From a virus (Duplodnaviria > Caudoviricetes), in IMG/VR virus record IMGVR_UViG_3300024272_002379: a stretch of 64,000 nt of DNA; one strand, given 5' to 3'. A model generated the notes under the pieces. That model saw only the letters and a list, made by a program, of their open reading frames with translations. It was not told where the DNA came from and searched no databases. Position numbers and translations under genes: made by a program. Below are positions 311 to 16,494 of the stretch, in pieces (within the stretch, counting starts at the first letter, position 1; the number at the start of each line of letters is the position of its first letter).

Positions 311-685
311 GGGCCTGTAATGGTATCGACAGGGGCATGAAAGTTATGAGTTCGTCCGAGTGGTGACGCTATCACCAACTTTAAAATTAAACGCAAACAG
401 ACCAATGTTAGCGGCTGCCTAGTTGCAGCTACCAAAACACAGTAAGATATTGCTGGTAACTGTTGAGGTTCAAAAACTAGCATAGTATAAGAAGTTCTCT
501 GTATACAACTTAGTGAACAGAGTGGTGGAGCAAGTAAGAAACCTTACTAGCCTAGTATCTCAGGTCTGGAAGACGATAGCCAGTGAGTGAAAGCTGAGAT
601 GAAATAACTCATTTAAGTTCGTAACGACGTAAAGACTTATAATGAATAATGTTTTTGGACACGGGTTCGACTCCCGTCAGGTCCA
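311..685 (+). ncRNA. ssrA: tmRNA, tag ANRPMLAAA* (393-422)
   Basis: 5' GGGCCTG pairs with 3' CAGGTCC-A with G3.U70; T-arm ACGGG-TTCGACT-CCCGT; GCA resume codon and Ala-rich tag. Confidence 0.95.
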
Positions 686-713
686 CTCTATATTACTATA
701 AGGAGACACAAAT

Positions 714-1499
714 ATGAAATTTCAAAAGTTTTTGGTAACTGCTCTTCTGTTAACTTTAGTTTTATATTCTACATATTATTGGAATGAACAAAGTAAAACA
801 GAAATCATACAAGCCGTTAACCAGTCTAGTAATGAAATATTAGAAAAAGAAAATAAAGTTGAAACCATAGTAGAAACTGTGTACATAGACAGAAAAGATA
901 GAGACCATGAGAATTACTCTATTCTTCAACTTGATGTAAAAAGTATTTCTCAGCTTCCAGAGCTTCCAACTGGATGCGAAGTTACATCATTAGCTATTGT
1001 TTTAAACTACTTAGGATATGAGGCAGATAAAGAAATTCTTGCTGATACATATTTACCTAAAGGACCAATTGGAGAGACCCATCCCGACGTGGCTTTTATA
1101 GGTAATCCTAGAGATGCTTATGCTTATGGTGCTAACGCACCTGTATTGGTTAAAACTGCAAATGATTATTTAGCAGATATGAAATCCGACTATAAAGCTC
1201 ACAATATTACTGGTACAGATTTTAAAGACTTACTTAGTTATGTAAATGATGGTTATCCAGTAATGATATGGGAAACAATTGGTTTTCTTGAACGTTATCC
1301 ATCTACAAAATGGGTTATTGACAACAGAGAGTTTCAGTGGTATGCTAATTTCCATTGTATGGTGTTAATTGGTTATACAGATAGTGACTATATCTTATTA
1401 GACCCTCTGGATGAAAAGAATGAAGTTCATTTTGTAAATAAAGAACTTGTTGAAAAACGATATGACGAGCTTGCAAAGCAGGCTATTGTTATATATTAG
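714..1499 (+). CDS. C39-like peptidase (YvpB/C39_2 type), N-terminal membrane anchor
   Basis: QLPELPTGCEVTSL, HCMVLIGY, DP motifs. Confidence 0.85.
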   Translation: MKFQKFLVTALLLTLVLYSTYYWNEQSKTEIIQAVNQSSNEILEKENKVETIVETVYIDRKDRDHENYSILQLDVKSISQLPELPTGCEVTSLAIVLNYLGYEADKEILADTYLPKGPIGETHPDVAFIGNPRDAYAYGANAPVLVKTANDYLADMKSDYKAHNITGTDFKDLLSYVNDGYPVMIWETIGFLERYPSTKWVIDNREFQWYANFHCMVLIGYTDSDYILLDPLDEKNEVHFVNKELVEKRYDELAKQAIVIY

Positions 1500-1559
1500 G
1501 TCATAATTAAGACCATCCTTTTGTAAAAAGATTTTTATACGGGTCTCATCAACCCGTAT

Positions 1560-1634
1560 CGGAATGTAGTTCAGCTTGGCTAGAACGCTTGTTTTGGGAA
1601 CAAGAGGTCGCAGGTTCGAATCCTGTCATTCCGA
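1560..1634 (+). tRNA. tRNA-Pro(TGG)
   Basis: cloverleaf; CTTGT-TTTGGGA-ACAAG. Confidence 0.95.
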
Positions 1635-1843
1635 CTAAGACTTTTTGTTACCTCTAAGGCATTCTCTTATACGGGTTCCGTATGGGGGATATAAGGAGCG
1701 AGGCGAACCTGAATCTTCCAGTCTCTAAAGAAGAATGAAGTGGCGTTTATGGTTATTATTTCCTTTGTACGACAACAAAGAAATTTAATTCTTTTTCATT
1801 TTTTGGTGTTCCTTTAGGAATAAAGCTGTCTAACGACAGCTAA

Positions 1844-1923
<80 letters not shown>

Positions 1924-2010
1924 TTTTCAAAACGCCATAGTTTTGGAAAACCTCGTTTGTGTAAAAAATCATCGAACCTGGCAGTGTATAGGTTAACTGC
2001 CACCCCACAT

Positions 2011-2083
2011 GCCCCAATTGCACAGTTGGTAGTGCGACTGATTTGTAATCAGTAGGTCGGCGGTTCGAGTCCGTCTTGGGGCT
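2011..2083 (+). tRNA. tRNA-Thr(TGT)
   Basis: ACTGA-TTTGTAA-TCAGT. Confidence 0.95.
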
Positions 2084-2520
2084 TTGTTACATAAGCATTT
2101 ATGCCCTAAGTAGCAGATAGACATAAATGTGTAACAAAACGATGGTCTGCTATAATCGGTAAAGTTGTTCTATCCTGTATAGAGGTTATTGGGTCCGATT
2201 CAGGTAAAACTAACGAAACAGGACGATTTATTGGCGTACTTTAGTGAAAGCAGAGTCGAGTAACTAAAGAGAAAATCAATACCCAGTTCATCATTCTTTC
2301 TGGGTTACGTGAGACGTTAGTATGGTCTCGCCGTAAAGATTAAGCTGTGATATAGTATCAAAGCTATATTGCGGAATCAGGTAGGATATTTATATCAGAC
2401 CTAACGTATACATAAGTTAAAACGAAGGTAATCCAACAGTGAACCGCAGTACAGAAGGTGGGCCTAGTGTTTGTAATACAAAGTTAGACCGTGCGGGGCT
2501 AATGCATGTTTCTTATGATA
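2084..2520 (+). ncRNA. large structured RNA between tRNAs (possibly ROOL-like)
   Basis: ORF-free, many hairpins (TTGTTACA/TGTAACAA, ACCCAG/CTGGGT, GAGAC/GTCTC), tRNA-island context; family not verified. Confidence 0.45.
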
Positions 2521-2528
2521 CGGTATAT

Positions 2529-2611
2529 GCAGCGTTGTGATAATGGTAGTCGGGCGGTCTTGAAAACCGTTGTGTCGAAAGGCATTGGGAGTTCAAGTCT
2601 CTCACGCTGCG
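2529..2611 (+). tRNA. tRNA-Ser(TGA)
   Basis: GCGGT-CTTGAAA-ACCGT, long variable arm. Confidence 0.93.
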
Positions 2612-2750
2612 TTTGGCTAAGCATAGGTAGCCGTACCCAGATGACGAAACGACAGTCGTCATATAACAAGCCTATTGCAGTTTATCATGTACTAAACATG
2701 AAGGCTCTTCTGTTTTAGATGCCAGTCTGTGCAGGAGGGCCGAAGTCTCT

Positions 2751-2839
2751 GGAGTGTTACTCAAGTTGGTGAAGAGGGAACCCTGCTAAGGTTCTAGCGT
2801 CCATTATGGGCGGCGAAGGTTCGAGTCCTTCACACTCCG
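2751..2839 (+). tRNA. tRNA-Ser(GCT)
   Basis: GAACC-CTGCTAA-GGTTC, long variable arm. Confidence 0.93.
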
Positions 2840-3105
2840 TTAAGGCTGAAGTGCAATGCTAAATTTTTATGTAATAGCACGCCCGTAAAAGACGTTGAGG
2901 TTGAGGACAATGAGTATGGAAGTGGCCTTTCGAGGCCTAACACGAAAGTTTGACAATAAGTACCGAATGCATAAGATTGACCCATCTAAATGCTACGTCA
3001 GTGGGAGGAACTTATGTAAATACGTTGATACTACGAAGAAGTATCTGCTTGGAAAACGAATAGGTCATTCCCGTTTCTAGCATTTCTGTACGAAAACAGA
3101 ATTAA

Positions 3106-3199
3106 CGGAAGGTAGCCTAGTGGCTAGGCTTGTTGCGAAAAAACGGGTGAAAGCAACTGGAAACGCCGTTTGACGTGAGTTCGAATCTCACTCTTCCGT
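3106..3199 (+). ncRNA. tRNA-like RNA with pseudoknot replacing the anticodon arm
   Basis: acceptor CGGAAGG/TCTTCCG, D-arm, T-arm GTGAG-TTCGAAT-CTCAC; GTTGC/GCAAC crossing AAACGG/CCGTTT. Confidence 0.65.
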
Positions 3200-3379
3200 C
3201 TATATCATCAATATCAACTTACAACAGCCATGGTAATGTTGTGAGAGCGTCATAGGAAGACGTTCTTCCTACTTCAAAGAGACTGGAGTATGCAACAATA
3301 GCTGATGAGGCTCATGACCCCATAAATTGCAGGATAAATAAACAGCGTCTGCTGAAAGATGACAAAGATGATATTATTT

Positions 3380-3453
3380 GGACCATTAGCTCAGTTGGTC
3401 AGAGCGGTCGGCTCATAACCGATTGGTCCTTGGTTCGAGTCCAAGATGGTCCA
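3380..3453 (+). tRNA. tRNA-CAT, probably Ile2 (lysidine type)
   Basis: GTCGG-CTCATAA-CCGAT; GGACC acceptor like Firmicute tRNA-Ile2. Confidence 0.88.
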
Positions 3454-3503
3454 CTAAGAACTCAATACGCCTCTTAACAATGCGGACCACGTTGAGTCAA
3501 AAA

Positions 3504-3628
3504 CCTGGGGGAGCTGTGGCAAGCAGCCATCTGATAAATGGTGAGTTAAAATATGAAGATACTTTATATCGGCATATTACTATGGTGAAAACCCATTCAT
3601 TAACTAGGTTCGATTCCTGGCTCCAGGA
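3504..3628 (+). tRNA. atypical tRNA-Ile(GAT) with ~61-nt variable-region insertion
   Basis: acceptor CCTGGGG/CTCCAGG, anticodon arm GCCAT-CTGATAA-ATGGT, T-arm CTAGG-TTCGATT-CCTGG. Confidence 0.6.
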
Positions 3629-3783
3629 CTATAATGCCTAACGGCATTAATATGGAATAGAAACCCCAATCAATTCCGTGTCAAACGAATTTCAAGACTA
3701 CCAGGGGGAACCTAACAAGGCTGTTATTTGTGCTGCTTGTGGCGTTAGGCTGGTAGAAGTAACCTACCCCAATTACAATTAAA

Positions 3784-4488
3784 TATTGTGCTTTAAAATG
3801 CACACATATATCCTGGTGAAGATTGTTTAATCAACATGCCAGGGCATATCTACAGTAAGTATGAAATAATATTCGTTACAGGCTTAGCCAGTATGTTTAT
3901 TATGTAATACTGAGACGTATGAGAACATGGGATACTTTGTTCGGTAGTGCGTTTAACGGATATAAATCAAGTCCTAAGGACGTGGTGAAGTTCTGTTATG
4001 AAGAAGGGAACCCTTCAAACGATTGATATGGCGTAACTTATACATAACGATTAGTGTGACATGCTTTTGGTGAACAGAATAGACGCTCTCTGTGAGAGAA
4101 TAACCCTGGGAACTGGATGAGCTGGTAACTCATTACAGATGGCAGGGAATTACCAAACAAGTTCATTCGCTGTGATACCGAGACAACTCGGAGTATAACG
4201 AAAGCATAAGTCGCAAGTAGCCTAAGGCGATAAAAGAGAATATAACAGTGATAAGATGAATGAATGTATCATCAAAACATATTCTGAACGATTCGGGTGA
4301 AAGCTGGAGGTGCCAATCCTTCATGGGTTTTAGACTGATAAAAGGCTGTTAACCTTTATCAGTTGGGGCAAGAAGTATGGAAGTCATGAGCCATGCTCAG
4401 ACTTGTCTCCCCATTCGCATAATAAATCACAATGTATATTTTATAAGATGAATAAAAGTCTATATGGTGTGTGTTTTAAAGCACAATA
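3784..4488 (+). ncRNA. GOLLD-like giant structured RNA
   Basis: 22-bp terminal helix 3784-3805/4467-4488 (2 G.U), ~705 nt, no ORF, in phage tRNA cluster; 3' half resembles GOLLD as I recall it. Confidence 0.7.
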
Positions 4489-4507
4489 CTAACAGCAACG
4501 GAAACTA

Positions 4508-4536
4508 TTGACATTCCATTGCTGTTTTTGTATAAT
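4508..4536 (+). promoter_or_regulatory. sigma-A promoter
   Basis: TTGACA-17-TATAAT, 12 nt before tRNA-Tyr. Confidence 0.85.
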
Positions 4537-4548
4537 TACAATCAATTC

Positions 4549-4632
4549 GGGTAGGTAGACCGTAGTTGGTAGCGGGCCAGACTGTAAATCTGGTGCCTTC
4601 GGGCTCCGTTAGTTCGATTCTGACCCTGCCCA
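4549..4632 (+). tRNA. tRNA-Tyr(GTA)
   Basis: CCAGA-CTGTAAA-TCTGG. Confidence 0.93.
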
Positions 4633-4819
4633 TTTACATCAAGGACGGTTGGTGACAATTTATTTGTCAAAGGGATAAGGGCAATACATGTTACCGCTTA
4701 TCGTGTAGATGTGTAGTGCAAAGTGTATTGGTGTGAGATTGTTTCCATATTAGAGAAACAGCCAATCTTAAATGTGAAATATCTAATTAGAGAAGGATAA
4801 AGTAACAGCTTTGTATTAT

Positions 4820-4891
4820 AGAATATTAGCTTTAACGGCAAAAGCACACGGCTGATAACCGTGGTCAGCGGTTCGACTCCGCTATATTCTG
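4820..4891 (+). tRNA. tRNA-Ile(GAT)
   Basis: CACGG-CTGATAA-CCGTG; AU-rich acceptor AGAATAT/ATATTCT. Confidence 0.85.
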
Positions 4892-5112
4892 TTCTTTGTG
4901 AGTGTGACTACTTACAATGACCTAAAACGGCTCGTAAACTTGTAGAAAGGGCAGGCCGACGGGTAAGAGTGCCGCAAGTACCAAATAACCCTGAGGGTAA
5001 AACTGGGTTCGCCTCTTTTTGAGCACGGGATGCAGAAAAGAATAGACATCTCTCAAAGTTTAGGTAAATAAACAGCTTAGGTTGGTAACCTCTTAGTCAG
5101 AAATAACCATAT

Positions 5113-5185
5113 TGGGTATTAGCTCAGTCGGCAGAGCACATGGCTGTTAACCATGGTGTCGTAGGTTCGAGCCCTACATACCCAG
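5113..5185 (+). tRNA. tRNA-Asn(GTT)
   Basis: CATGG-CTGTTAA-CCATG. Confidence 0.95.
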
Positions 5186-5487
5186 TTTAAATCAAACTGA
5201 AACGAGTCAGGCCCAATCGCTCGATTAAGTATGTGAGGAAAGTGAGGTTGGTTGCCAGCTTACTCAAGACTTCGTGTGCTTGAGGACAGCCCATTTATGG
5301 GTCCCCACTGGTTGTAAAATGTCTTCGCATTTAAAGTGGTGTTGTAAAATACATTCCGCTTAATCTTTAGTTTGGTTTTATTTGGAGAGACATGTTGTAG
5401 CGGTTTCTACGTATGTACAAAGGCTCTGGACAAGTCTTATTTTTTGAAACAGCAAGCGTGCGATTATCAGGTTAGTCTCTCCAGTAT

Positions 5488-5561
5488 AGCGGGGTAGAGC
5501 AGTCAGGCAGCTCGCAAGGCTCATAACCTTGAGGTCATAGGTTCAAATCCTATCCCCGCCA
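5488..5561 (+). tRNA. tRNA-Met(CAT), initiator-like
   Basis: 1:72 A/C mismatch, GCGGGG acceptor, CAAGG-CTCATAA-CCTTG. Confidence 0.88.
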
Positions 5562-5636
5562 CTCATGAAAACAAGTGATTGTTTTCTGATATCAGGCATT
5601 TATCGGGTTCGAATAGATGTAGGTATTGTTTTTAAT

Positions 5637-7787: not shown

Positions 7788-8543
7788 ATGAAAAAACATC
7801 TTTATACAGTACTGACCTTTATGGTCATTCTCGTAATATGGTACAATGCATCATTGATTGCAAATCCATTATTCATTCCTAATCCACTAGCAGTGTGGAA
7901 TGATTTTAAAATACTTGTATCAGATGGCTCTATCTTTATTCATCTTATTTATACCTTCAGGAGAATTATGGTTGCTACATGCTTATCAGGACTTGTCGCA
8001 CTACCGTTAGGGTTATTGGTGCGTAATTTCAAAATAGCAAAAGCAACCATTTATCCTGTAATTATGCTATTACGTTATATACCTGTAACAGCATTCTATC
8101 CATTGCTTATTATGTGGGTTGGTATTGAAGAGGAAATGAAAGTAGCTTTTCTGTTTATCGCATGTTTTGTTTACATGCTCCCATCAGTAGTTCTTGCTCT
8201 TGATGAAGTAAACGACCAGCTTATTGATACAGGATTGACTATTGGAATGAGTAAATTACAAACTATCACCAGAATTCAATTACCATCTACATTACCTAGT
8301 ATTATGAACAGTTTTGTTATGATGGTTGGTATTGGCTGGACATATTGTGCAGTAGTAGAAACAATCAATGCCAAATATGGATTAGGCTACGTAATCCATC
8401 AGGCAACCGCTAGAGGTAAAACTGATTTGGTATTCATGGCTATTATTGCCATTATGATTGTTAGCTTTGTGTTTGATAACACTTGTAAATTTTTAATCCA
8501 TAAGGTATTTAAATGGAGGTACGTTAATGATAAAACTAAATAA
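7788..8543 (+). CDS. ABC transporter permease (NitT/TauT/SsuC family)
   Basis: multi-TM, EAA-like loop, VVE..GLGY. Confidence 0.9.
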   Translation: MKKHLYTVLTFMVILVIWYNASLIANPLFIPNPLAVWNDFKILVSDGSIFIHLIYTFRRIMVATCLSGLVALPLGLLVRNFKIAKATIYPVIMLLRYIPVTAFYPLLIMWVGIEEEMKVAFLFIACFVYMLPSVVLALDEVNDQLIDTGLTIGMSKLQTITRIQLPSTLPSIMNSFVMMVGIGWTYCAVVETINAKYGLGYVIHQATARGKTDLVFMAIIAIMIVSFVFDNTCKFLIHKVFKWRYVNDKTK

Positions 8544-9123
8544 TGTATCAATAGGCTACAATTGTCTTGCAATTCGGAAAGATTTAAATTATAATTTCCA
8601 TCAAGGTAAGATTTATGGAATCTTAGGAGAATCAGGTTGTGGCAAGACAACATTGTTAAAGACCATTGCTGGATTAATAAGACCCGTGAAAGGCTCAATA
8701 AGATGTGATATTCCTAAAAGAGAAATTTACATGATGCACCAGTCTTACACATGTTTTGATTGGTTATCATGCTTAGATAATATCTTGATAACGGAACGCA
8801 TCAAACATCATAAAATTACGGACGAAATTAGAAATAAAGCAATGGAAATGCTTAAGGCTGTTGGTCTTGAAGACCATGCAGACAAATACCCAACACAGTT
8901 ATCTGGCGGACAGAGACAAAGATTAGCGTTAGCACGCACGCTATTCACTTCACCTAGACTGATTTTAATGGATGAACCATTATCAGCATTAGATGAAGAA
9001 ACCCGTACAGCAATGCAGGATTTAATCCTGGATATACATAAGAAAACCTATAACACAATCATCATGATTACACATAGCAAATCCGAAGCGGATAAAATGT
9101 GTGATGAGATTATTAACTTTTAA
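8527..9123 (+). CDS. ABC transporter ATPase
   Basis: GESGCGKT, LSGGQ, DEPLSALD, H-loop. Confidence 0.95.
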   Translation: MIKLNNVSIGYNCLAIRKDLNYNFHQGKIYGILGESGCGKTTLLKTIAGLIRPVKGSIRCDIPKREIYMMHQSYTCFDWLSCLDNILITERIKHHKITDEIRNKAMEMLKAVGLEDHADKYPTQLSGGQRQRLALARTLFTSPRLILMDEPLSALDEETRTAMQDLILDIHKKTYNTIIMITHSKSEADKMCDEIINF

Positions 9124-9137
9124 GGGAGGACAAAACA

Positions 9138-9686
9138 ATGGCTAGTTTTCTTGAAAGAATGGGCTTAGTTGAAAAAACTGAAGAAGAAACATTCGACTAC
9201 GAACCAACTGAATATGAAGTAGAAACAGATGAATCTGTTGATGTAAACCTTGAAGGAGTATCCAAAGAAAATTTACAGACAAATCTGATTTCTGAAATTT
9301 ACAATGCGAATGGACTGTCTGATATGTCTAATTCTATTTTTAAAGCAGAAGAAATCAGCAAGAGTTTACCAGCTACAATGACAACTGAAGCAAAGAAAGC
9401 TTCTGTAGTAGGTATTCTTGGTTCATTCGGTCTTACAGTCGAAGGATTAATCGAAGATGCATCCACAAGAGCATTTATGCTCGGAGGAGCAGCAACACGT
9501 ATTACAGAAGATAATACAGCAGTTATTAACGCAAAGAAATTAGAAATCGAAGAAGCGAAAAAGCTTATCGAACAGTGCGAAAAGACAATCGCAGAACATG
9601 AACAGGTTATCGCTACATCCATGGATTTAATCGAGGATGAAGTAAAGCGTATCACTGGTCTTAAAGAATTTTTAGGAGGTAAGTAA
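9138..9686 (+). CDS. coiled-coil protein of ABC/PspA module
   Basis: ORF in operon, C-terminal heptads. Confidence 0.75.
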   Translation: MASFLERMGLVEKTEEETFDYEPTEYEVETDESVDVNLEGVSKENLQTNLISEIYNANGLSDMSNSIFKAEEISKSLPATMTTEAKKASVVGILGSFGLTVEGLIEDASTRAFMLGGAATRITEDNTAVINAKKLEIEEAKKLIEQCEKTIAEHEQVIATSMDLIEDEVKRITGLKEFLGGK

Positions 9687-9688
9687 TT

Positions 9689-10435
9689 ATGATTACTTTA
9701 ACACAGATGATTTATGCTACCATAATCATTATTGTGGTAGTGGCATTAATTGTTTCAGGCAAATTACGTGCATTAGGTAAGGCGTTTCTTAATCTTTTCG
9801 TGGAAGATTTAGCGGCATCTCCAGAAGGAGCTGAGGCTTTATTTAACCAGAAAATTGAAGAAGTTGAAGATAAGTATCGTAAGGCTAACGATGTTTTCTC
9901 AAGAATCGCTGGTGAACGTACAAACTGCAAGAAACAGGTAGAGAATTTAAACGCTAGATTAAAAAGAGTAGAGTCTGTTTGTGAACAGTTAGCTCAGGCT
10001 CAGGATGTAGAAAGTTTAAAAATTAAAGCTTCTGAACGTGCAGAAATCGTAGAAGAAATTAAGCTTCATGAAGAAACATTAGTAACACTTGAAGCTGCAT
10101 TAAAAGACGCAACTGAAGCAAGAAATGCTTGCGAAGAAAATCTTAACGAGCTGAGAAAACAGAAGAAACAGGTTGTTACAAAGATGAAACGTAACAGAGA
10201 TATGAAGGCAGTTTATGATGACCTTAATGGCATCGGTGCTGGTGACCATACTTCTAAATTACTTGATAAAGTAATTGAAAGAGGTACTGATTTAAACAAT
10301 CTCGTTACAGGTTCCAAAGAGGCTTATGATTCTAAGACCTCTACAAAATCAAGAAAGATTGACCAGAAACTCAGTGCTTCTGAAAACGATGCATATGTTC
10401 AAAGTTTACTGGGCAAGTACAGCAAAAAGTCATAA
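9689..10435 (+). CDS. PspA/IM30-like coiled-coil protein with N-terminal TM
   Basis: TM helix followed by a long coiled coil of PspA-like length. Confidence 0.6.
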   Translation: MITLTQMIYATIIIIVVVALIVSGKLRALGKAFLNLFVEDLAASPEGAEALFNQKIEEVEDKYRKANDVFSRIAGERTNCKKQVENLNARLKRVESVCEQLAQAQDVESLKIKASERAEIVEEIKLHEETLVTLEAALKDATEARNACEENLNELRKQKKQVVTKMKRNRDMKAVYDDLNGIGAGDHTSKLLDKVIERGTDLNNLVTGSKEAYDSKTSTKSRKIDQKLSASENDAYVQSLLGKYSKKS

Positions 10436-10453
10436 CATCAGGAGGGAATTATT

Positions 10454-12049
10454 ATGAAACAGTACAGAATTACAGGTAAGGCAAAAATTTTAATCATTGT
10501 CTTTGTTATTGTAGTATTGGCAGGACTTATCGGCGGTGGCTTAAAAACAGGCCTTATCAAAAACGACATCAAAGATGGTGGTAGTAATACAGTAGTATCT
10601 CAGGACAGCAATACAGGTTCTAACAAAAAAGAAGAATCTAATGCTACAGTAAAACCAGAAGTAACAGATACAATTAACCTCTCATTAGATGAGTGGATTG
10701 GTTGGAAATCTATTGTAGATGCTAATGGTGATTTAACAACAGATGCAGAAGAAGCTTTTGCTTTAATGGGTATCAATGTAAACATTCATGTTATGAATGA
10801 TGCCACACAGTCAAGTAATGCATTAATCAAAGGTGATTTGGATGCTGCTGGTTATACAATCAACAGAACTGCATTCTTATCTTCTAAGTTTAAAAATGCT
10901 GGCGTAGATGTTGTAATGCCATTCATTACTAACTATTCTAACGGCGGTGACGGTATTATCGCAAAATCAAGTATCAAATCAGTTAATGACTTAGTTGGTG
11001 CTAAAATCGGTGTACCAGAATTCTCTGAGGCTCAGACATTAGTTGTTTGGTTTGTAAACAATTCTAACTTAACTCAGGCAGAAAAAGATACAATTATCGA
11101 CAATCTTATTATGTTTGCAACTCCAGATGAAGCCGCTAAAGCGTTCTTCTCAGGACAGGTTGATGTAGCTGCTACATGGGAACCATATTTAACACAGGCT
11201 GAAAATATGACAGATTGCCATATCTTATTTAGTACAGCAAGTTCTTCAAATCTTGTAATGGATGGTATCTTATTCCGTAAGGATTTCGTAGATGCTAATC
11301 CAGAAACTGTAGAAAAATTCATTATGGCTTGTTTAATGGCTGCTGATAAATATGAAACAGATTTCGATGCAATCAGAAAAGTTATGCCTATGTATTCTAC
11401 AATGTCTGATGAAGACATTAAGGCAAACTGTGTTGCTGCTAAGTTAACAACATGGAAAGATAATGCTGATTTATTAAACGGAACTGCTAAGATTATGTAC
11501 ACAGACATGTGTGAAGTATGGCAGTCTATCGGTGAAGAAGTCGATGCAAGTATCGTAGATACTTTATTTGATGATAAATACATTCAGAATATCGCTTTTA
11601 ATTTCAGCAGTACAGATTCATCTTATGATACAGGTAAAACTCAGGTAACAGAAGAGAATAAACAGATTATTGCTGATACACAGGCATTACTTGGCGGTAC
11701 AGCATCTGTAACATTCGAGAAGAATACAGCTAAATTCTCTGATTCTGCCGCTGCTTCTGCTGAACTTAATAAGTTTATTGAAATGGCAAAAGTACTTGAC
11801 GGTGCTATTATCGAGATTGCTGGTAATACAGACCCAAATCCTAACAGCGACCCTCTCGATGAGTACAATAAGAAATTGTCTTCTCAGAGAGCTGAAGCTG
11901 TTAAGAATTACTTCATCATGAACGGTATTTCTGCTGATAGAATTGTTACGGTTGGTAACGGTTCAAGCAATCCTATCGTTGATAACGATACAGAAGAGCA
12001 TCGTGCAATGAATCGTCGTACAGACGTATCATTTAAAATTATTGAATAA
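10454..12049 (+). CDS. ABC substrate-binding protein fused to OmpA/MotB-like peptidoglycan-binding domain
   Basis: SNGGDGIIA, DVAATWEPY; C-terminal GNTD..YNKKLSSQRAEAV..NRR. Confidence 0.88.
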   Translation: MKQYRITGKAKILIIVFVIVVLAGLIGGGLKTGLIKNDIKDGGSNTVVSQDSNTGSNKKEESNATVKPEVTDTINLSLDEWIGWKSIVDANGDLTTDAEEAFALMGINVNIHVMNDATQSSNALIKGDLDAAGYTINRTAFLSSKFKNAGVDVVMPFITNYSNGGDGIIAKSSIKSVNDLVGAKIGVPEFSEAQTLVVWFVNNSNLTQAEKDTIIDNLIMFATPDEAAKAFFSGQVDVAATWEPYLTQAENMTDCHILFSTASSSNLVMDGILFRKDFVDANPETVEKFIMACLMAADKYETDFDAIRKVMPMYSTMSDEDIKANCVAAKLTTWKDNADLLNGTAKIMYTDMCEVWQSIGEEVDASIVDTLFDDKYIQNIAFNFSSTDSSYDTGKTQVTEENKQIIADTQALLGGTASVTFEKNTAKFSDSAAASAELNKFIEMAKVLDGAIIEIAGNTDPNPNSDPLDEYNKKLSSQRAEAVKNYFIMNGISADRIVTVGNGSSNPIVDNDTEEHRAMNRRTDVSFKIIE

Positions 12050-13015: not shown

Positions 13016-13516
13016 ATGGCAATAGTAGGAGAATGGATACCACAGTCTGGCTACAAAGGTAAAGCAGATGCAAACAAAGTAGCTTACGAAATTGAAACCA
13101 TTGGAATCAGTAACACTACGGATGAGTTTAATACTCAGGAAATGGTAGATTATGCTCGTAATAATCCAGGGTCAGAATTACATAAGTTATTTGAATGGAA
13201 CGATAGCGTTGCTGCTGAAGCATATCGAAATCAGCAAGCACGAGATATTTTACGTTTCTTAAAAATTACTGTTGTTGATGATACGACTCAGACTAAAAAT
13301 CCTACATTAGTTAGGTATTTTGTTAGTACTGGTAATCATGATGGTATGTATAAGAAAACAGAACCTATATTCCAGAATGCTTCAGAAGCAGATAGGGTAT
13401 TAGAAAATATGAGAAGAGACGCTGAAAACTTTATTAATAGATACAAAGCATATCTCAGTCTCAATCCAAATTTATCTAACGCTATTACAGCTTTACAGGC
13501 AGTTGTTAATCCTTAA
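13016..13516 (+). CDS. conserved phage protein adjacent to RAMP gene
   Basis: VDYAR..SELHKLFEWNDSVAAEAYRNQQAR motif; RBS at 13016. Confidence 0.7.
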   Translation: MAIVGEWIPQSGYKGKADANKVAYEIETIGISNTTDEFNTQEMVDYARNNPGSELHKLFEWNDSVAAEAYRNQQARDILRFLKITVVDDTTQTKNPTLVRYFVSTGNHDGMYKKTEPIFQNASEADRVLENMRRDAENFINRYKAYLSLNPNLSNAITALQAVVNP

Positions 13517-13523
13517 GTTTTAT

Positions 13524-14238
13524 ACCTTGCTGTATATATATTGGCTTTAATTGGTCAATGAAAATACAACAAATTAGGACAAACCAATCCAGCAGAGAAC
13601 ATTATCAGCATACTACAGGACATAAGCAGGATAGGACATCACAAACGGCTCGTTAGAGCCTTTATATATACAGCAAGGTTGTTGTATAAAGCTCATTATA
13701 GGACAGAATAGCTCATAGCAGATGATATCATTAAAATACATAATAACACAAAGTCTTTTATAATCTCTTATATGTATATCGACTTTAAATGCTTAGAGTC
13801 AATATACATGTAAGAGAGGACAGGACAACTCAGTGCATTTCTACCACAACAAATGACAATGTATAACAAAGCAGAGGGGCGATTTTCGCCCCATTTTTAT
13901 GAATACATATATTGGCTTTAATGGTCAATAGAACAATACAGTGCAGAGCAGTATATAATAGCTCAGTTAAGAATACCATAGCATAACACAAATGGCTCTT
14001 AGAGCCTTTATATGTGTTCATAAATAGATATATTGACTTTAGCAGTCAATAAGCTCAAAAGACCGTAGAACAGGACAGCTCATTACAAAGTAGTTCAGGT
14101 TAAAACAAGCGAAAACAAAGGCTCGTTAGAGTCAATGTATGTGTTTATGAAACACAAAAGCACAAAGACAGCATAATACATGTCAGTGCAACATAGGATA
14201 TTACAAATCATTACAAAATCCTATTGAAAATCAATAGG
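13524..14238 (+). repeat. array of six 5-nt-periodic (NYA-NN)n tracts in repeated hairpin scaffolds; putative guide-RNA array
   Basis: invariant A every 5 nt over 80 units; repeated scaffold arms ATATYGRCTTTA...TTAGAGYC inside long inverted repeats. Confidence 0.9.
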
Positions 14239-14256
14239 TAGAAAGCGAGACGCATT

Positions 14257-14913
14257 ATGGCAGCTAAAGTTACAGAAGAAGTAAAAGAGATTCAGAACAA
14301 AATTAATTTCGCTACAGCAACAATTACAATTGTTGGCGATAGTGACCTTATTCTTAACAAAATGAGAGATAGCACTACTCAGGAACTTGCAGATAAACAG
14401 GAAGGTAAAGTACAGGGTACAAAGAAACCTGTAAACATGTACGAGCATCTTGTTGGTTCCATTCATTGGCTCAAGGGAGAAGAAACAGACTATACAGAAG
14501 AAGGCTGGTTGAATGCATTAAAGAATAATGTTCCAGGTTATCCATCTTCAGGTATGAAGAAAGCATTATGTGATGCTGTTGTTCGTGTATTAGGCGAAAC
14601 ATATAGCACAAAGTTCAATGCTAACGTACAGATTCTTAATAGCTTCTTACCAATCGAATTTGGTTCAAGTGCTTATGATAAATCATTATTTAGCCCTCAG
14701 AAGGGTAGTCCAGTTCTTTGTTACAGAAATGTATTCAGAGATTGGAAAACAACATTTACAATTAAATATATTCCAGACAATTATTCATTAGACCGTATCA
14801 TCGAAGTTATTAACTGTGCAGGTTTTGCATGTGGTATCGGTAGCCACAGACCATCAAGTAAAGGTGGCTCCAACGGTATGTTCCACGTAGAATCCGTTAT
14901 GGAAGTAGTTTAA
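14257..14913 (+). CDS. stand-alone Cas7/RAMP-like RNA-binding protein
   Basis: beta1 ITIVGDSDLILN, PSSGMKKAL, YRNVFRDW, C-terminal Gly loop AGFACGIGSHRPSSKGGSNGMF. Confidence 0.8.
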   Translation: MAAKVTEEVKEIQNKINFATATITIVGDSDLILNKMRDSTTQELADKQEGKVQGTKKPVNMYEHLVGSIHWLKGEETDYTEEGWLNALKNNVPGYPSSGMKKALCDAVVRVLGETYSTKFNANVQILNSFLPIEFGSSAYDKSLFSPQKGSPVLCYRNVFRDWKTTFTIKYIPDNYSLDRIIEVINCAGFACGIGSHRPSSKGGSNGMFHVESVMEVV

Positions 14914-14921
14914 GTACATAT

Positions 14922-15650
14922 GGGAAGGAAAACCCTATAATAAACCGCTAAGATGAAGGCAGACCAAGGCTGTTGCAGGACCTGAAAAGGCGTTCGCACT
15001 TAGATGTAATAAAAGCGAAGATTAGGAGACTCATATGCAAAACCCTGACATATGACATGGAGAAATACCGTTGAATGCAACCAGGTAGTTAAGATTTTAT
15101 ACCGACAGAAACGACCGTTACTGCGTAGCTCAAAGTCGGAAGTTTACTTAATTGAAATAAAAAACAAATAGAGAGCAAAGGTAACAGCTAAGATATTACG
15201 ACCTCATGGGTGCCAACCACGCACACGAATCCGTATTAAATCTGACGTAGAGGCAAGTTCACTTAGATGCAATCAAGAACTTTAGCGTGGGTGCTTCACA
15301 ACTGCATAAATATTTTGAGAAGGAAAACTCGCTATCAAACCGCTAGGTTATGGGTCCCTTACCATGTTTAAAGACCTTGAACTCCTAGAGCGTAAGCATT
15401 TGTAACAAAAGTTTTAAAATTGAATAGTGGCTTTAGTGGTTTGATGGAAACCATCTCCCAGGAGGGGACTGGTGCGAATGAACCCAGGAGACAGGACTAA
15501 CTCCTTACACCAGCGAGTCTTGAATTAGACCGCTCGGAGAAACGATGCCCAGCTAAGTTTTCAGAGGGATAAGGTATGCTTTGCAGGAAACCCTCGGTGC
15601 TGTTTGCCTATTTCTCCTACCAGGCTTCTTAGATGCAATAAAAAGACCGA
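14922..15650 (+). ncRNA. array of five related pseudoknot-like RNA units
   Basis: repeated GCTAAG...CTTAGATGYAAT with variable 36-70 nt inserts. Confidence 0.65.
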
Positions 15651-15871
15651 TAAAACAAAATAGGATATAGTTGGTAATATACGTAGTTTCGGGTTCGAGG
15701 AACCATTTTCTGTACCATCCACAGGAATAAACGAAGAGGAATTACAAGTACATTGGCGACAAGGTGTGCGAACAAAGACGACCATTACAGTCATTCATGG
15801 TTAATCGTGTACAAAATGTATGAGAGTATCATATGCACTGCTCTCATACTACTTGTCGAACGAAATAAGTA

Positions 15872-15899
15872 TTGAAATATTTTTCAAATCTGTTACAAT
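15872..15899 (+). promoter_or_regulatory. sigma-A promoter (extended -10)
   Basis: TTGAAA-16-TACAAT with TG; precedes tRNA-Gln. Confidence 0.6.
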
Positions 15900-15912
15900 A
15901 TATAACACATAT

Positions 15913-15984
15913 AGGGCTATCGCCAAGCGGTAAGGCACAGGATTTTGATTCCTGCATCCGTTGGTTCGAATCCAACTAGCCCTG
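15913..15984 (+). tRNA. tRNA-Gln(TTG)
   Basis: CAGGA-TTTTGAT-TCCTG. Confidence 0.93.
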
Positions 15985-16069
15985 TTCATAGTGGTCAGTG
16001 TTAATGCACACTGTAAATAAAGTAGCCTCTCGATTGGCTTTCAATGGTCAGCTTTAACCACTATAACAT

Positions 16070-16244
16070 ACACGGGTTGTCTGAGCTGGTGAGAGATGAT
16101 ATCTTATCAATAGGCCAGTGAACTAGGTGCCAACCACTCTGATTAGAGTAGGGACATGTGAAAGTTATAAGGGAAGGAACGCTGATACGTAGCATTGTTT
16201 TGGTAACTTGATGAGTAGTAGAGGTTCGATTCCTTGCCCGTGTG
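16070..16244 (+). ncRNA. tRNA-like RNA with ~100-nt insert in place of anticodon arm
   Basis: ACACGGGT/GCCCGTGT acceptor, GAGG-TTCGATT-CCTT T-arm, CTTATCAA/TTGATGAG helix. Confidence 0.55.
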
Positions 16245-16259
16245 TTAAAGACCAAGCAA

Positions 16260-16332
16260 AGGTAAGTAGCTCAGTTGGGAGAGCACCCTGCATTGAGCGG
16301 GGTCGTCGCAGGTTCGAGTCCTGCCTTGTCTT
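16260..16332 (+). tRNA. atypical tRNA (loop CATTGAG, nominal TTG; identity uncertain)
   Basis: canonical D/T arms, A at position 33, two G.U in acceptor. Confidence 0.6.
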
Positions 16333-16494
16333 GATATAAGCTGAAGTCTTGAAGCCAAGTATAGTCATGCGGTGGGTGGATATTTACATTAGGTCCAATG
16401 AGATTAGACTTTAGTATCTATCAAATAGAACTGTTGACTAAAAATAATGCCCAGCAAAAACCATATGCTGGGCTATTTTATTGGAGGAAATTAT

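What the first reader, a model, noticed from the sequence alone, without database searches (positions are those of the whole stretch)
13524..14151. Modular hairpin cassettes around the tracts, including one empty cassette and alternative pairings
Seen: tracts A, D and E each sit in the loop of a long inverted repeat (13524-13540/13663-13679, perfect 17 bp; 13896-13911/14009-14024; 14017-14042/14126-14151). The outer arms differ in sequence but keep pairing, while the inner core is conserved (GRCTTTAR...TTAGAGYC). 13764-13817 is the same scaffold with only a 4-nt loop. Each core arm can also fold locally (ATTGRC..GTCAAT; GGCTC..GAGCC), and cassettes 3 and 4 overlap. Tracts B, C and F lie between cassettes. 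Inference: these are processing signals (RNase III-like or RAMP-mediated) and possibly units of guide gain and loss.
Basis: partly seen in the sequence, partly recalled or inferred. Interest (0 to 1): 0.75.

Follow-up and report, generated by a model that had tools for sequence, protein, structure and literature searches.

The report
Helix-closed guide RNAs of phage VIPR
The hairpin cassettes are real RNA helices that each enclose one guide RNA of a phage VIPR system, a CRISPR-like RNA-guided DNA-binding system described in 2026; the helix-closed layout is not in the VIPR papers I could read and suggests how the guides are cut out and swapped.

Summary
The 740-nt gap at 13517-14256 holds four inverted repeats with 25-33-nt arms, one of them with only a 4-nt loop.

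The gene just downstream (14257-14913) is a Vipr-family RAMP. The loops are made of 5-nt units, NN-W-Y-A, with two variable and three constant bases. The region is therefore the guide (vrRNA) array of a VIPR system (bioRxiv 10.64898/2026.04.26.720920), with a non-GGY constant triplet.

Eleven related loci, down to 43% Vipr identity, carry the same layout:
- Arm sequences differ but stay paired (98% of cells, 15 of 28 pairs with compensatory changes).
- G·U outnumbers A·C 130 to 15, so the helix forms in + strand RNA.
- Both conserved cores can also fold as local hairpins.

The tracts behave as guides under the published 1-nt-skip rule. Loop guide D matches a CpaB-like gene in frame, and inter-cassette tract B matches the HsdM motif AFGDAYEYLM.

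Cassettes are gained and lost. Two otherwise identical phage loci differ by one 182-nt cassette-sized indel at the conserved core.

Cleavage by RNase III or by the RAMP is inference only.

This scan already noted the same architecture in another genome (e1-5664254).

Verdict: a new array variant of a known system.

The parts
13016..13516 (+). Conserved 166-aa gene directly upstream of the array; candidate vipr-accessory protein (vap)
   Evidence: A homologous gene sits directly upstream of the array in the other loci compared, L036 and L038-L044, including the distant ones. It matches phrog_15946. There is no Pfam or PDB sequence hit. The AF2 model (pLDDT 80) gives only weak winged-helix/forkhead-like matches, E about 0.5.
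13524..13679 (+). Cassette 1. Closing helix 13524-13556 with 13647-13679. 5' local hairpin ATTGGC 13540-13545 with GTCAAT 13554-13559. Guide tract A 13557-13646, about 18 pentamers. 3' local hairpin GGCTC 13647-13651 with GAGCC 13656-13660.
   Evidence: z -6.1. The orthologous cassette in L040 has an 80% identical loop that differs by one 5-nt unit indel.
13680..13763 (+). Inter-cassette tract B, an open guide. Units 13691-13740 read GC TT GG GA GC TA GA TA TT AT.
   Evidence: Parsed. The 1-nt-skip pattern gives at least 120 exact hits in bacterial genomes. Of the 80 retrieved hits translated in frame, 77 read A(F/L)GDAYEYL(M/I) and one reads AFGEAYEYLM, all in HsdM-type context.
13764..13817 (+). 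Cassette 2, the 'empty' one: the same scaffold as a plain 25-bp hairpin with a 4-nt loop (pairing extends to 13756-13825)
   Evidence: -28.6 kcal/mol, z -8.0. The orthologous cassette still holds a guide loop in L002 (3261-3414, 78-nt loop) and in L001.
13818..13900 (+). Inter-cassette tract C (13818-13875), nearly invariant among close relatives, ending in an intrinsic terminator (stem 13876-13892 plus a T run)
13896..14024 (+). Cassette 3. Closing helix 13896-13929 with 13991-14024. 5' hairpin 13911-13916 with 13924-13929. Guide tract D 13930-13990, 12-13 pentamers. 3' hairpin 13994-13998 with 14002-14006.
   Evidence: z -5.6. Guide D matches an RcpC/CpaB-like gene in frame, in 11-12 of 13 units, on 21 metagenome contigs.
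14017..14151 (+). Cassette 4. Closing helix 14017-14047 with 14121-14151, overlapping cassette 3 by 8 nt. 5' hairpin ATTGAC 14032-14037 with GTCAAT 14045-14050. Guide tract E 14048-14120, about 15 pentamers. 3' hairpin GGCTC 14120-14124 with GAGTC 14129-14133.
   Evidence: z -6.4. L001 and L002 have no counterpart at this position.
14152..14256 (+). Tract F: conserved pentamer tract with the strongest periodicity in the window, followed by a hairpin at 14220-14238. It forms the leader of the vipr gene.
   Evidence: No convincing target was found.
14257..14913 (+). vipr gene: 218-aa single-RRM RAMP with a C-terminal glycine-rich loop
   Evidence: A profile of 32 homologues hits PDB 36pp_D, 'SUSP1 Vipr protein', at E 7e-5. 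21 of the 32 hit Pfam RAMPs PF03787. The AF2 model has pLDDT 84, and its best Foldseek matches are Csm3/Cas7 chains, E 4e-7.

Best explanation
The 740-nt region is the guide-RNA (vrRNA) array of a VIPR system, transcribed on the + strand.

Each cassette is one guide gene and has five parts:
- a 5' arm;
- a short 5' hairpin;
- 10-23 pentamer units, NN-W-Y-A, whose NN pairs specify the target;
- a short 3' hairpin, which is the counterpart of the published vrRNA tail;
- a 3' arm.

In the precursor RNA the two arms and the conserved cores pair into a 28-36-bp helix, which holds the unstructured guide in its loop.

Inferred mechanism: the helices are the maturation signals of a multi-guide transcript. 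The host double-strand-specific RNase III most likely cuts them. One set of cuts would free both the loop guides (A, D, E) and the guides between cassettes (B, C, F). That would explain why the 'empty' cassette 2 keeps an intact helix. After cutting, or once Vipr coats the guide, the cores refold into the two local hairpins that cap the mature guide.

The conserved cores are also direct repeats. Recombination between them deletes, duplicates or exchanges whole guides.

Shown here: the system identity, RNA-level pairing with covariation, guide-like targets, and cassette-level indels. Inferred: the cleavage, the enzyme that does it, and the refolding.
For: System identity:
- The downstream protein is a Vipr-family RAMP.
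- The loops have strong 5-nt periodicity. The same-base frequency is 0.47 at lag 5, against 0.25-0.33 at lags that are not multiples of 5, and a coding control shows no such peak.
- The pentamer logo has positions 1-2 free, position 3 W, position 4 Y, and position 5 A in 97% of units.
- Such tracts occur only at 13556-14234 in the window.

The helix is real and forms in RNA:
- The same architecture lies upstream of vipr homologues in 11 other loci, including those at 50% and 43% Vipr identity, whose arms have unrelated sequences.
- RNAalifold predicts 28 pairs, 15 of them with compensatory changes.
- 98.4% of cells are paired, against 82.6% in shuffles (0 of 500 as high) and 33-52% when partners are slid.
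- The outer 14 nt pair with their own partner at 13.3 of 14 positions, against 6.3 with other cassettes' partners.
- G·U outnumbers A·C 130 to 15, p 5e-24.
- The + strand folds better than the - strand.

Alternative hairpins: 99.3% and 97.4% of cells paired, with two compensatory pairs each.

Multi-guide transcript:
- Only one strong terminator lies in the array, and no convincing promoter lies in front of each cassette.
- The array starts 7 nt after the upstream stop codon.

The tracts are guides:
- Guide D matches GDIVDVYAVDPAT codons in 11-12 of 13 units, while the wobble bases vary.
- Tract B matches the HsdM motif. L039 carries an equivalent guide.

Gain and loss:
- L036 and L037 are identical over 569 nt except for one 182-nt indel bounded by the conserved 3' core.
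- The delta scaffold arms are 95-96% identical in five phages, while their loops are no more alike than shuffled sequence.
Against: - There are no RNA-end or expression data, so cleavage and the enzyme are untested.
- No RNase III gene (PF14622) was found in two complete relatives, so a host enzyme must be assumed.
- Calculated energies favour the long helix over the local hairpins. Even after trimming the outer arms, only cassette 1 prefers the local hairpins.
- The 3' hairpin followed by TTTAT also looks like a weak terminator.
- Targets were found for only one of the three loop guides.
- The VIPR papers' figures and supplements were not readable, so the layout may already be drawn there.
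Confidence: 0.55

Rival explanations
1. The helices are not cut. They act as clamps and boundaries. They stop Vipr polymerisation from running between neighbouring guides, and they block exonucleases, so that ends are set by trimming up to the helix.
For: The covariation and G·U evidence fits this reading equally well. Firmicute-type hosts have 5' exonucleases that stop at helices (general knowledge). The helix is the most stable fold.
Against: In the published structures Vipr forms an extended helical filament on a linear vrRNA (10.64898/2026.04.26.720927). That is hard to reconcile with a loop whose ends are held 0 nt apart. Guides between cassettes would remain tethered to their neighbours.
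Confidence: 0.2
2. Vipr itself, or the upstream accessory protein, recognises the conserved local hairpins and processes the array, as Cas6 does with CRISPR repeats.
For: Vipr is a RAMP with a GhGxxxxxGhG-type loop and an invariant His-Trp pair. The two local hairpins are conserved in sequence and pairing.
Against: No nuclease activity is reported for Vipr in the texts I read. The fold is closest to Cas7/Csm3, not Cas6. This reading does not explain why outer arms of arbitrary sequence must pair.
Confidence: 0.1
3. Each cassette is its own transcription unit. The left core carries a -10-like TATATT, and the right GGCTC..GAGCC hairpin plus TTTAT acts as a terminator. On this reading the inverted repeat is incidental.
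For: A promoter-like match spans 14007-14034, and terminator-like matches lie at 13647-13660 and 13994-14006.
Against: Promoter-like matches are fewer than in shuffled sequence, 2 against 5.3. Outer arms with no promoter or terminator role covary strongly: 12 of 15 pairs are compensatory. The 5-bp hairpins are weak terminators.
Confidence: 0.07
4. The repeats act in DNA, as cruciforms or folded single strands that serve as recombination sites, like integron attC sites.
For: The sites are imperfect inverted repeats with conserved cores and variable centres. Cassette-level indels end in the cores.
Against: The strong G·U over A·C bias (130:15) and the weaker - strand folds point to RNA of one strand. 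No integrase lies nearby. The indel is explained by ordinary recombination between 27-nt direct repeats.
Confidence: 0.05

Closest known systems
VIPR systems (Vipr protein plus vrRNA), type II exemplars Escherichia phage SUSP1 and the Pseudomonas fulva prophage; bioRxiv 10.64898/2026.04.26.720920, 10.64898/2026.04.26.720927 and 10.64898/2026.10.15.759431
   Same: Both are phage-borne. Both have a small single-RRM RAMP next to long non-coding regions. Guides are built from about 10-20 pentamers with three constant and two variable bases, followed by a conserved structured 3' element. Targets match with one skipped base that falls on the codon wobble position. An accessory gene lies beside the system.
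   Different: The constant triplet is W-Y-A, not GGY. Each hypervariable guide is enclosed by a covarying 28-36-bp closing helix, with a conserved 5' hairpin as well as the 3' one. The published texts describe a 3' pseudoknot tail and staggered, hammerhead-interspersed or single-guide arrays, and none mentions a closing helix. One guide matches a host restriction-modification gene, whereas the published natural targets are mostly satellites, prophages and other VIPR systems.
Non-canonical VIPR repeat clusters reported in bioRxiv 10.64898/2026.10.21.760802
   Same: That paper reports 21 clusters of 5-nt-periodic arrays beside Vipr-like folds, with constant triplets other than GGY: GAC, CAC, WGT and TGH. 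TGH/NN is what NN-W-Y-A gives when read on the opposite strand.
   Different: Whether this family is one of those clusters could not be checked, because the figures are not held. That text does not discuss closing helices.
RNase III processing helices: rRNA precursor stems, phage T7 early mRNA sites, tracrRNA:pre-crRNA duplexes of type II CRISPR (textbook knowledge)
   Same: Long, nearly perfect RNA helices are formed by sequences flanking a functional RNA in a multi-unit precursor. Helix length is above the roughly 20 bp that the enzyme needs.
   Different: Cleavage here is untested. The helix cores have a second, local fold.
CRISPR arrays processed by Cas6
   Same: Conserved structured repeats alternate with variable guide segments next to a RAMP gene.
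   Different: There are no direct-repeat/spacer units and no cas1, cas2 or effector genes. The guide is itself a repeat tract read discontinuously. Two different conserved elements flank each guide and pair with each other.

Membership tests
VIPR system | Vipr protein: a small single-RRM RAMP with a glycine-rich loop and a thumb | tested here: met
   The profile hits SUSP1 Vipr (PDB 36pp_D) at E 7e-5. 21 of 32 homologues hit Pfam RAMPs. The AF2 model is closest to Csm3/Cas7.
VIPR system | vrRNA of tandem pentamers with a constant triplet and a variable dinucleotide (canonically GGY/NN) | tested here: met
   Period 5 is clear, and the logo is NN-W-Y-A with A in 97% of units, 10-23 units per guide. 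The architecture is met, but the canonical GGY triplet is not; published alternatives exist.
VIPR system | Conserved structured 3' tail directly after the repeat tract | tested here: met
   A GGCTC-loop-GAGYC hairpin follows each loop guide and is 97.4% paired across 23 cassettes. It has no sequence likeness to the SUSP1 pseudoknot tail. A pseudoknot was not tested.
VIPR system | Targets match the NN string with one skipped base, usually the codon wobble position | tested here: met
   Tract B matches hsdM codons. Guide D matches codons of a CpaB-like gene. Guides E and F gave no convincing target, and A and C were not searched in the public collections.
VIPR system | Adjacent accessory (vap) gene | tested here: inconclusive
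   A conserved gene lies upstream in all loci. Homology to the published vap1-6 could not be tested. Only weak winged-helix-like structural matches were found.
VIPR system | Vipr-vrRNA filament binds and silences double-stranded DNA | not testable with these tools
   This needs pull-down and reporter assays.
RNase III substrate | RNA helix of about 20 bp or more in the transcript | tested here: met
   The helices are 28-36 bp with few mismatches and dominate the fold of the whole region.
RNase III substrate | Staggered double-strand cleavage that depends on the enzyme | not testable with these tools
   No RNA-end data are available. No phage RNase III gene was found in two complete relatives.
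CRISPR array | Identical direct repeats alternating with unique spacers, with cas genes nearby | tested here: not met
   The repeat families are two different cores in inverted orientation. No cas gene other than the RAMP lies among the neighbours.
Integron attC site | Folded single-stranded DNA site acted on by an adjacent integron integrase | tested here: not met
   No integrase lies in the neighbourhood. The G·U bias indicates folding in RNA.

The most novel reading that the evidence does not exclude
The closing helices and their conserved cores may be more than maturation signals. They may be the handles by which guides are acquired and exchanged between co-infecting phages. That would be a Cas1-free way of renewing a guide repertoire, in which a constant scaffold is kept and the enclosed guide is swapped as a unit. 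The two alternative folds would then act as a switch that licenses Vipr loading only after processing.
Probability: 0.2. Interest if true: 0.8.

Novelty: new variant of a known kind. Interest (0 to 1): 0.5.

Why it matters
How VIPR guides are made from their precursors is not addressed for most array types in the available papers. A layout in which every guide sits inside a long covarying helix gives a concrete, testable route: host RNase III cuts, then the ends refold into capping hairpins. It would also give a design rule for expressing several guides from one transcript.

The cassette-sized indel between two otherwise identical phage loci, together with unrelated guides inside nearly identical scaffolds, shows how a repertoire can turn over without an adaptation machine. 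That bears on the proposed VIPR-to-CRISPR transition.

The guides themselves point to uses beyond phage-versus-phage conflict. One matches the most conserved motif of host type I restriction-modification methylases. Another matches a pilus-assembly gene in a locus with conjugation-like genes.

Tried and rejected
- Rfam scan of the region: only sub-threshold chance matches.
- blastn against phage records: no relative.
- Exact search for the left core in IMG/VR: 32 stretches, of which only the two relatives carry cassettes; the rest are coding-sequence coincidences.
- Early ideas dropped once the RAMP was identified as Vipr: a CsrA sponge (ACAGGA motifs), TRAP-like binding, a ToxI-like antitoxin mimic, retron or DRT2-type templates, and integron attC sites.
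- Target searches that found nothing:
  - guide D and guide E, full length, in IMG/VR;
  - a 10-unit seed of guide E in IMG/VR;
  - guides D and E in 301 Clostridia genomes with up to 3 mismatches;
  - tract F, which gave only near-chance matches;
  - all 48 regular guide runs against the window, the viral loci and 120 restriction-modification loci, which gave nothing beyond the HsdM guides.
- Phage-encoded RNase III: none in two complete relatives.
- Upstream protein: no Pfam or PDB sequence match and only weak fold matches.
- The whole genome of the window is not held. Supplements of the VIPR paper are not held.

Full report
**What is there**

The window is part of an uncultured phage whose closest relatives are about 210-kb contigs. 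All genes run on the + strand, and the window carries a tmRNA and 12 tRNA genes. The finding lies in a 740-nt gene-free gap, 13517-14256, between a 166-aa gene (13016-13516) and a 218-aa gene (14257-14913).

Extending them gaplessly with G·U allowed gives arms of 31-34 nt:
- Cassette 1: 13524-13556 with 13647-13679.
- Cassette 2: 13764-13788 with 13793-13817, with a 4-nt loop.
- Cassette 3: 13896-13929 with 13991-14024.
- Cassette 4: 14017-14047 with 14121-14151.

The two conserved cores occur nowhere else in the 64 kb, and never as often in shuffles. As RNA, the whole region folds at -206 kcal/mol (z -10.9), with all four helices in the minimum-energy structure and the loops largely unpaired.

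**What system it belongs to**

The downstream protein has 180 database relatives. Three results place it in the Vipr family:
- A profile of 32 of them matches one solved structure, chain 36pp_D, 'SUSP1 Vipr protein', at E 7e-5.
- 21 of the 32 touch Pfam RAMPs.
- The AlphaFold model (pLDDT 84) is closest to Csm3/Cas7 subunits.

Vipr is the protein of VIPR systems, described in 2026 preprints. It is a small RAMP that polymerises on a guide RNA (vrRNA) made of 9-16 pentamers. The constant GGY triplet is held by the protein. The variable NN pair reads double-stranded DNA while skipping every third base, usually the codon wobble position (10.64898/2026.04.26.720920 and 10.64898/2026.04.26.720927).

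The loops of the cassettes fit this design with a different constant triplet:
- Same-base frequency is 0.47 at lag 5 and 0.45 at lag 10, against 0.25-0.33 at other lags. A coding control shows no such peak.
- A phase model over 34 loops (2531 nt) gives positions 1-2 free (0.09 and 0.06 bit), position 3 A or T, position 4 C or T, and position 5 A in 97% of units.
- Tracts of this kind occur only at 13556-14234 in the window.

A later preprint lists non-canonical VIPR triplets, including TGH/NN. That is NN-W-Y-A read on the other strand (10.64898/2026.10.21.760802). I could not verify that it is the same family.

**Is the helix real, and in what molecule**

I fetched eleven further loci through Vipr homologues: L001, L002, L036-L044, at 92% down to 43% protein identity. 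Every one has a gene-free stretch upstream of vipr that holds one to four cassettes of the same design. In the distant loci the arms and cores have unrelated sequences, yet they still pair, and they still flank a pentamer tract.

On an alignment of 23 close-clade cassettes:
- RNAalifold predicts the closing helix with 28 pairs, 15 of them with compensatory changes.
- 98.4% of cells are standard pairs, against 82.6% in shuffles (0 of 500 as high) and 33-52% when partners are slid by 1-3 columns.
- The outer 14 nt of each cassette pair with their own partner at 13.3 of 14 positions, against 6.3 ± 2.4 with other cassettes' partners. 32 of the 35 outer arms are distinct.

These counts include paralogous and orthologous copies, so cells are not independent events. 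The number of distinct arm sequences still makes chance or simple inheritance implausible.

With arms redefined by a strand-symmetric rule, G·U pairs outnumber A·C 130 to 15 (p 5e-24), where base composition predicts 1.8 to 1. The - strand also folds worse: cassettes 3 and 4 score z -2.6, against -5.6 and -6.4 on the + strand. The pairing is therefore selected in + strand RNA, not in duplex DNA.

**The alternative pairings**

The left core can fold locally as ATTGRC with GYCAAT. The right core can fold as GGCTC with GAGYC. Across the 23 cassettes these hairpins are 99.3% and 97.4% paired, each with two compensatory pairs. One example is GACTC/GAGTC in L040. The distant clades have local hairpins of different sequence at the same two places (and direct reading).

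The local hairpins exclude the inner third of the long helix but not its outer half. Calculated energies favour the full helix in the precursor: -47, -38 and -39 kcal/mol against -34, -23 and -15. After removal of the outer arms, cassette 1 prefers the two local hairpins, while cassettes 3 and 4 still prefer the inner long-range pairing. The alternative fold is thus conserved, but it would need cleavage or protein binding to become dominant.

**Are the tracts guides**

I applied the published one-base-skip rule.

Guide D, in the loop of cassette 3:
- A 10-unit seed found 21 metagenome contigs, mostly from human gut.
- All matches are in frame on the peptide GDIVDVYAVDPAT. 11-12 of the 13 units match, while the skipped bases vary.
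- An exact 12-unit match (24 bases) is expected well under once by chance, on my rough guess of the collection's size. The 21 hits are homologues of one gene, so they count as one event.
- The gene is RcpC/CpaB-like (27.8 bits, just under Pfam's 28.8 cut-off). It lies beside a T2SSF gene and a 1264-aa AAA_30/UvrD_C_2 helicase, with IS110 transposases nearby. That suggests a pilus locus of a mobile element or of the host.

Tract B, which lies between cassettes:
- Its pattern gives at least 120 exact matches in bacterial genomes.
- Of the 80 retrieved hits translated in frame, 77 read A(F/L)GDAYEYL(M/I) and one reads AFGEAYEYLM. This is the conserved HsdM motif that precedes NAGKSGGEFF.
- The 65%-identity relative L039 carries an equivalent guide.

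No convincing targets turned up for E or F. A and C were checked only against the sequences already fetched, not the public collections.

**How it most likely works**

The array begins 7 nt after the upstream stop codon. It contains one strong terminator (13876-13892) and has no better-than-chance promoter in front of each cassette. So several guides probably share a transcript and must be separated.

The only conserved signals at the guide boundaries are the helices. At 28-36 bp they are classical substrates for RNase III. Two complete relatives encode no RNase III of their own, so the host enzyme would be used.

Cuts in the helices would release both the enclosed guides and the guides between cassettes. 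This explains why cassette 2 keeps a perfect helix although its guide is deleted, and its orthologues in L001 and L002 are full. Because Vipr forms an extended filament on linear vrRNA, a loop closed by a helix could not be fully coated. This also argues for opening or cutting.

All of this is inference. No RNA ends are available, and the rival readings cannot be excluded: uncut clamps, Vipr self-processing, or separate transcription units.

**Gain and loss**

L036 and L037 are two loci on contigs from different samples. Their vipr genes differ by one base, and they are identical over 569 nt of the array. The one difference is a 182-nt segment in L037 (3165-3346), bounded on both sides by the same 27-nt 3' core. 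Its loss leaves a chimeric cassette with the left arm of one scaffold and the right arm of the next.

The delta scaffold is 95-96% identical in five phages. The enclosed loops are no more alike than shuffled sequence, 0.56 against 0.54 ± 0.07. The alpha loops of the window and L040 are 80% identical and differ by point changes and one 5-nt unit.

Orphan half-cassettes occur in L036/L037 and L040. Cassette 4 of the window has no counterpart in L001 or L002. Cassettes are therefore real units of turnover, and the conserved cores serve as recombination homology.

**Novelty and verdict**

The system is known. This scan has met VIPR in at least 74 genomes and has already noted this helix-closed layout in another genome (e1-5664254).

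The texts of the three VIPR preprints mention tails, staggered arrays, hammerhead-interspersed arrays and single guides. They do not mention closing helices or RNase III. Their figures and supplements were not readable.

I class the finding as a new variant of a known kind. It is a real feature with strong structural evidence and a plausible but untested maturation mechanism.

Noticed in passing
window 13691-13740 (tract B): Ten consecutive guide units read, with one skipped base, as the codons of AFGDAYEYLM. This is the conserved motif of type I restriction-modification methylase HsdM. At least 120 diverse bacterial genomes match exactly. It suggests that a phage VIPR guide silences a host defence gene, a target class not named in the VIPR texts I read.
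   Followed up: partly
L039 2838-2887: A relative at 65% Vipr identity has a 10-unit guide at the start of its array. It matches D(A/I)(F/I)GDAYEY(L/F) in 119 of 120 HsdM loci at 85% or better, so the HsdM-directed guide is conserved across the clade.
   Followed up: partly
L180 2322-3068; L183 5441-6208; L171 11633-12379: The target of loop guide D is an RcpC/CpaB-like gene. In L183 it lies next to a T2SSF gene and a 1264-aa AAA_30/UvrD_C_2 helicase. In L171 and L180 IS110 transposases lie beside it. The locus is possibly the pilus locus of a conjugative element.
   Followed up: partly
window 14152-14238: Tract F has the strongest pentamer periodicity in the window and is nearly invariant among relatives. 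It lies in the leader of vipr itself, followed by a hairpin. It could be a conserved guide or a site of Vipr autoregulation. No target was found.
   Followed up: partly
L043 and L044 (Vipr 43% identical): The distant VIPR loci sit between a 645-aa AAA_15/AAA_23 protein plus a Tad4-family gene (PF25186) upstream, and a diversity-generating retroelement (bAvd, RVT_1) downstream.
   Followed up: no
window 7788-12049: The phage carries an ABC-transporter-like set (BPD_transp_1 permease, ABC_tran ATPase), a PspA-like protein, and a 531-aa NMT1/substrate-binding protein fused to an OmpA domain. This is an unusual cargo just upstream of the VIPR locus, and it is conserved in L036 and L038.
   Followed up: no
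window 311-5562 and 15912-16333: A tmRNA gene (tag ANRPMLAAA) and 12 tRNA genes lie in long non-coding stretches. The non-coding region 14921-16446 downstream of vipr shows no NN-W-Y-A periodicity, so it is not a second guide array of this type.
   Followed up: partly
L040 3105-3152; L036/L037 array start: Orphan half-cassettes occur: a 3' core and right arm without a left arm in L040, and a left arm without its partner in L036/L037. They look like remnants of cassette deletions.
   Followed up: no
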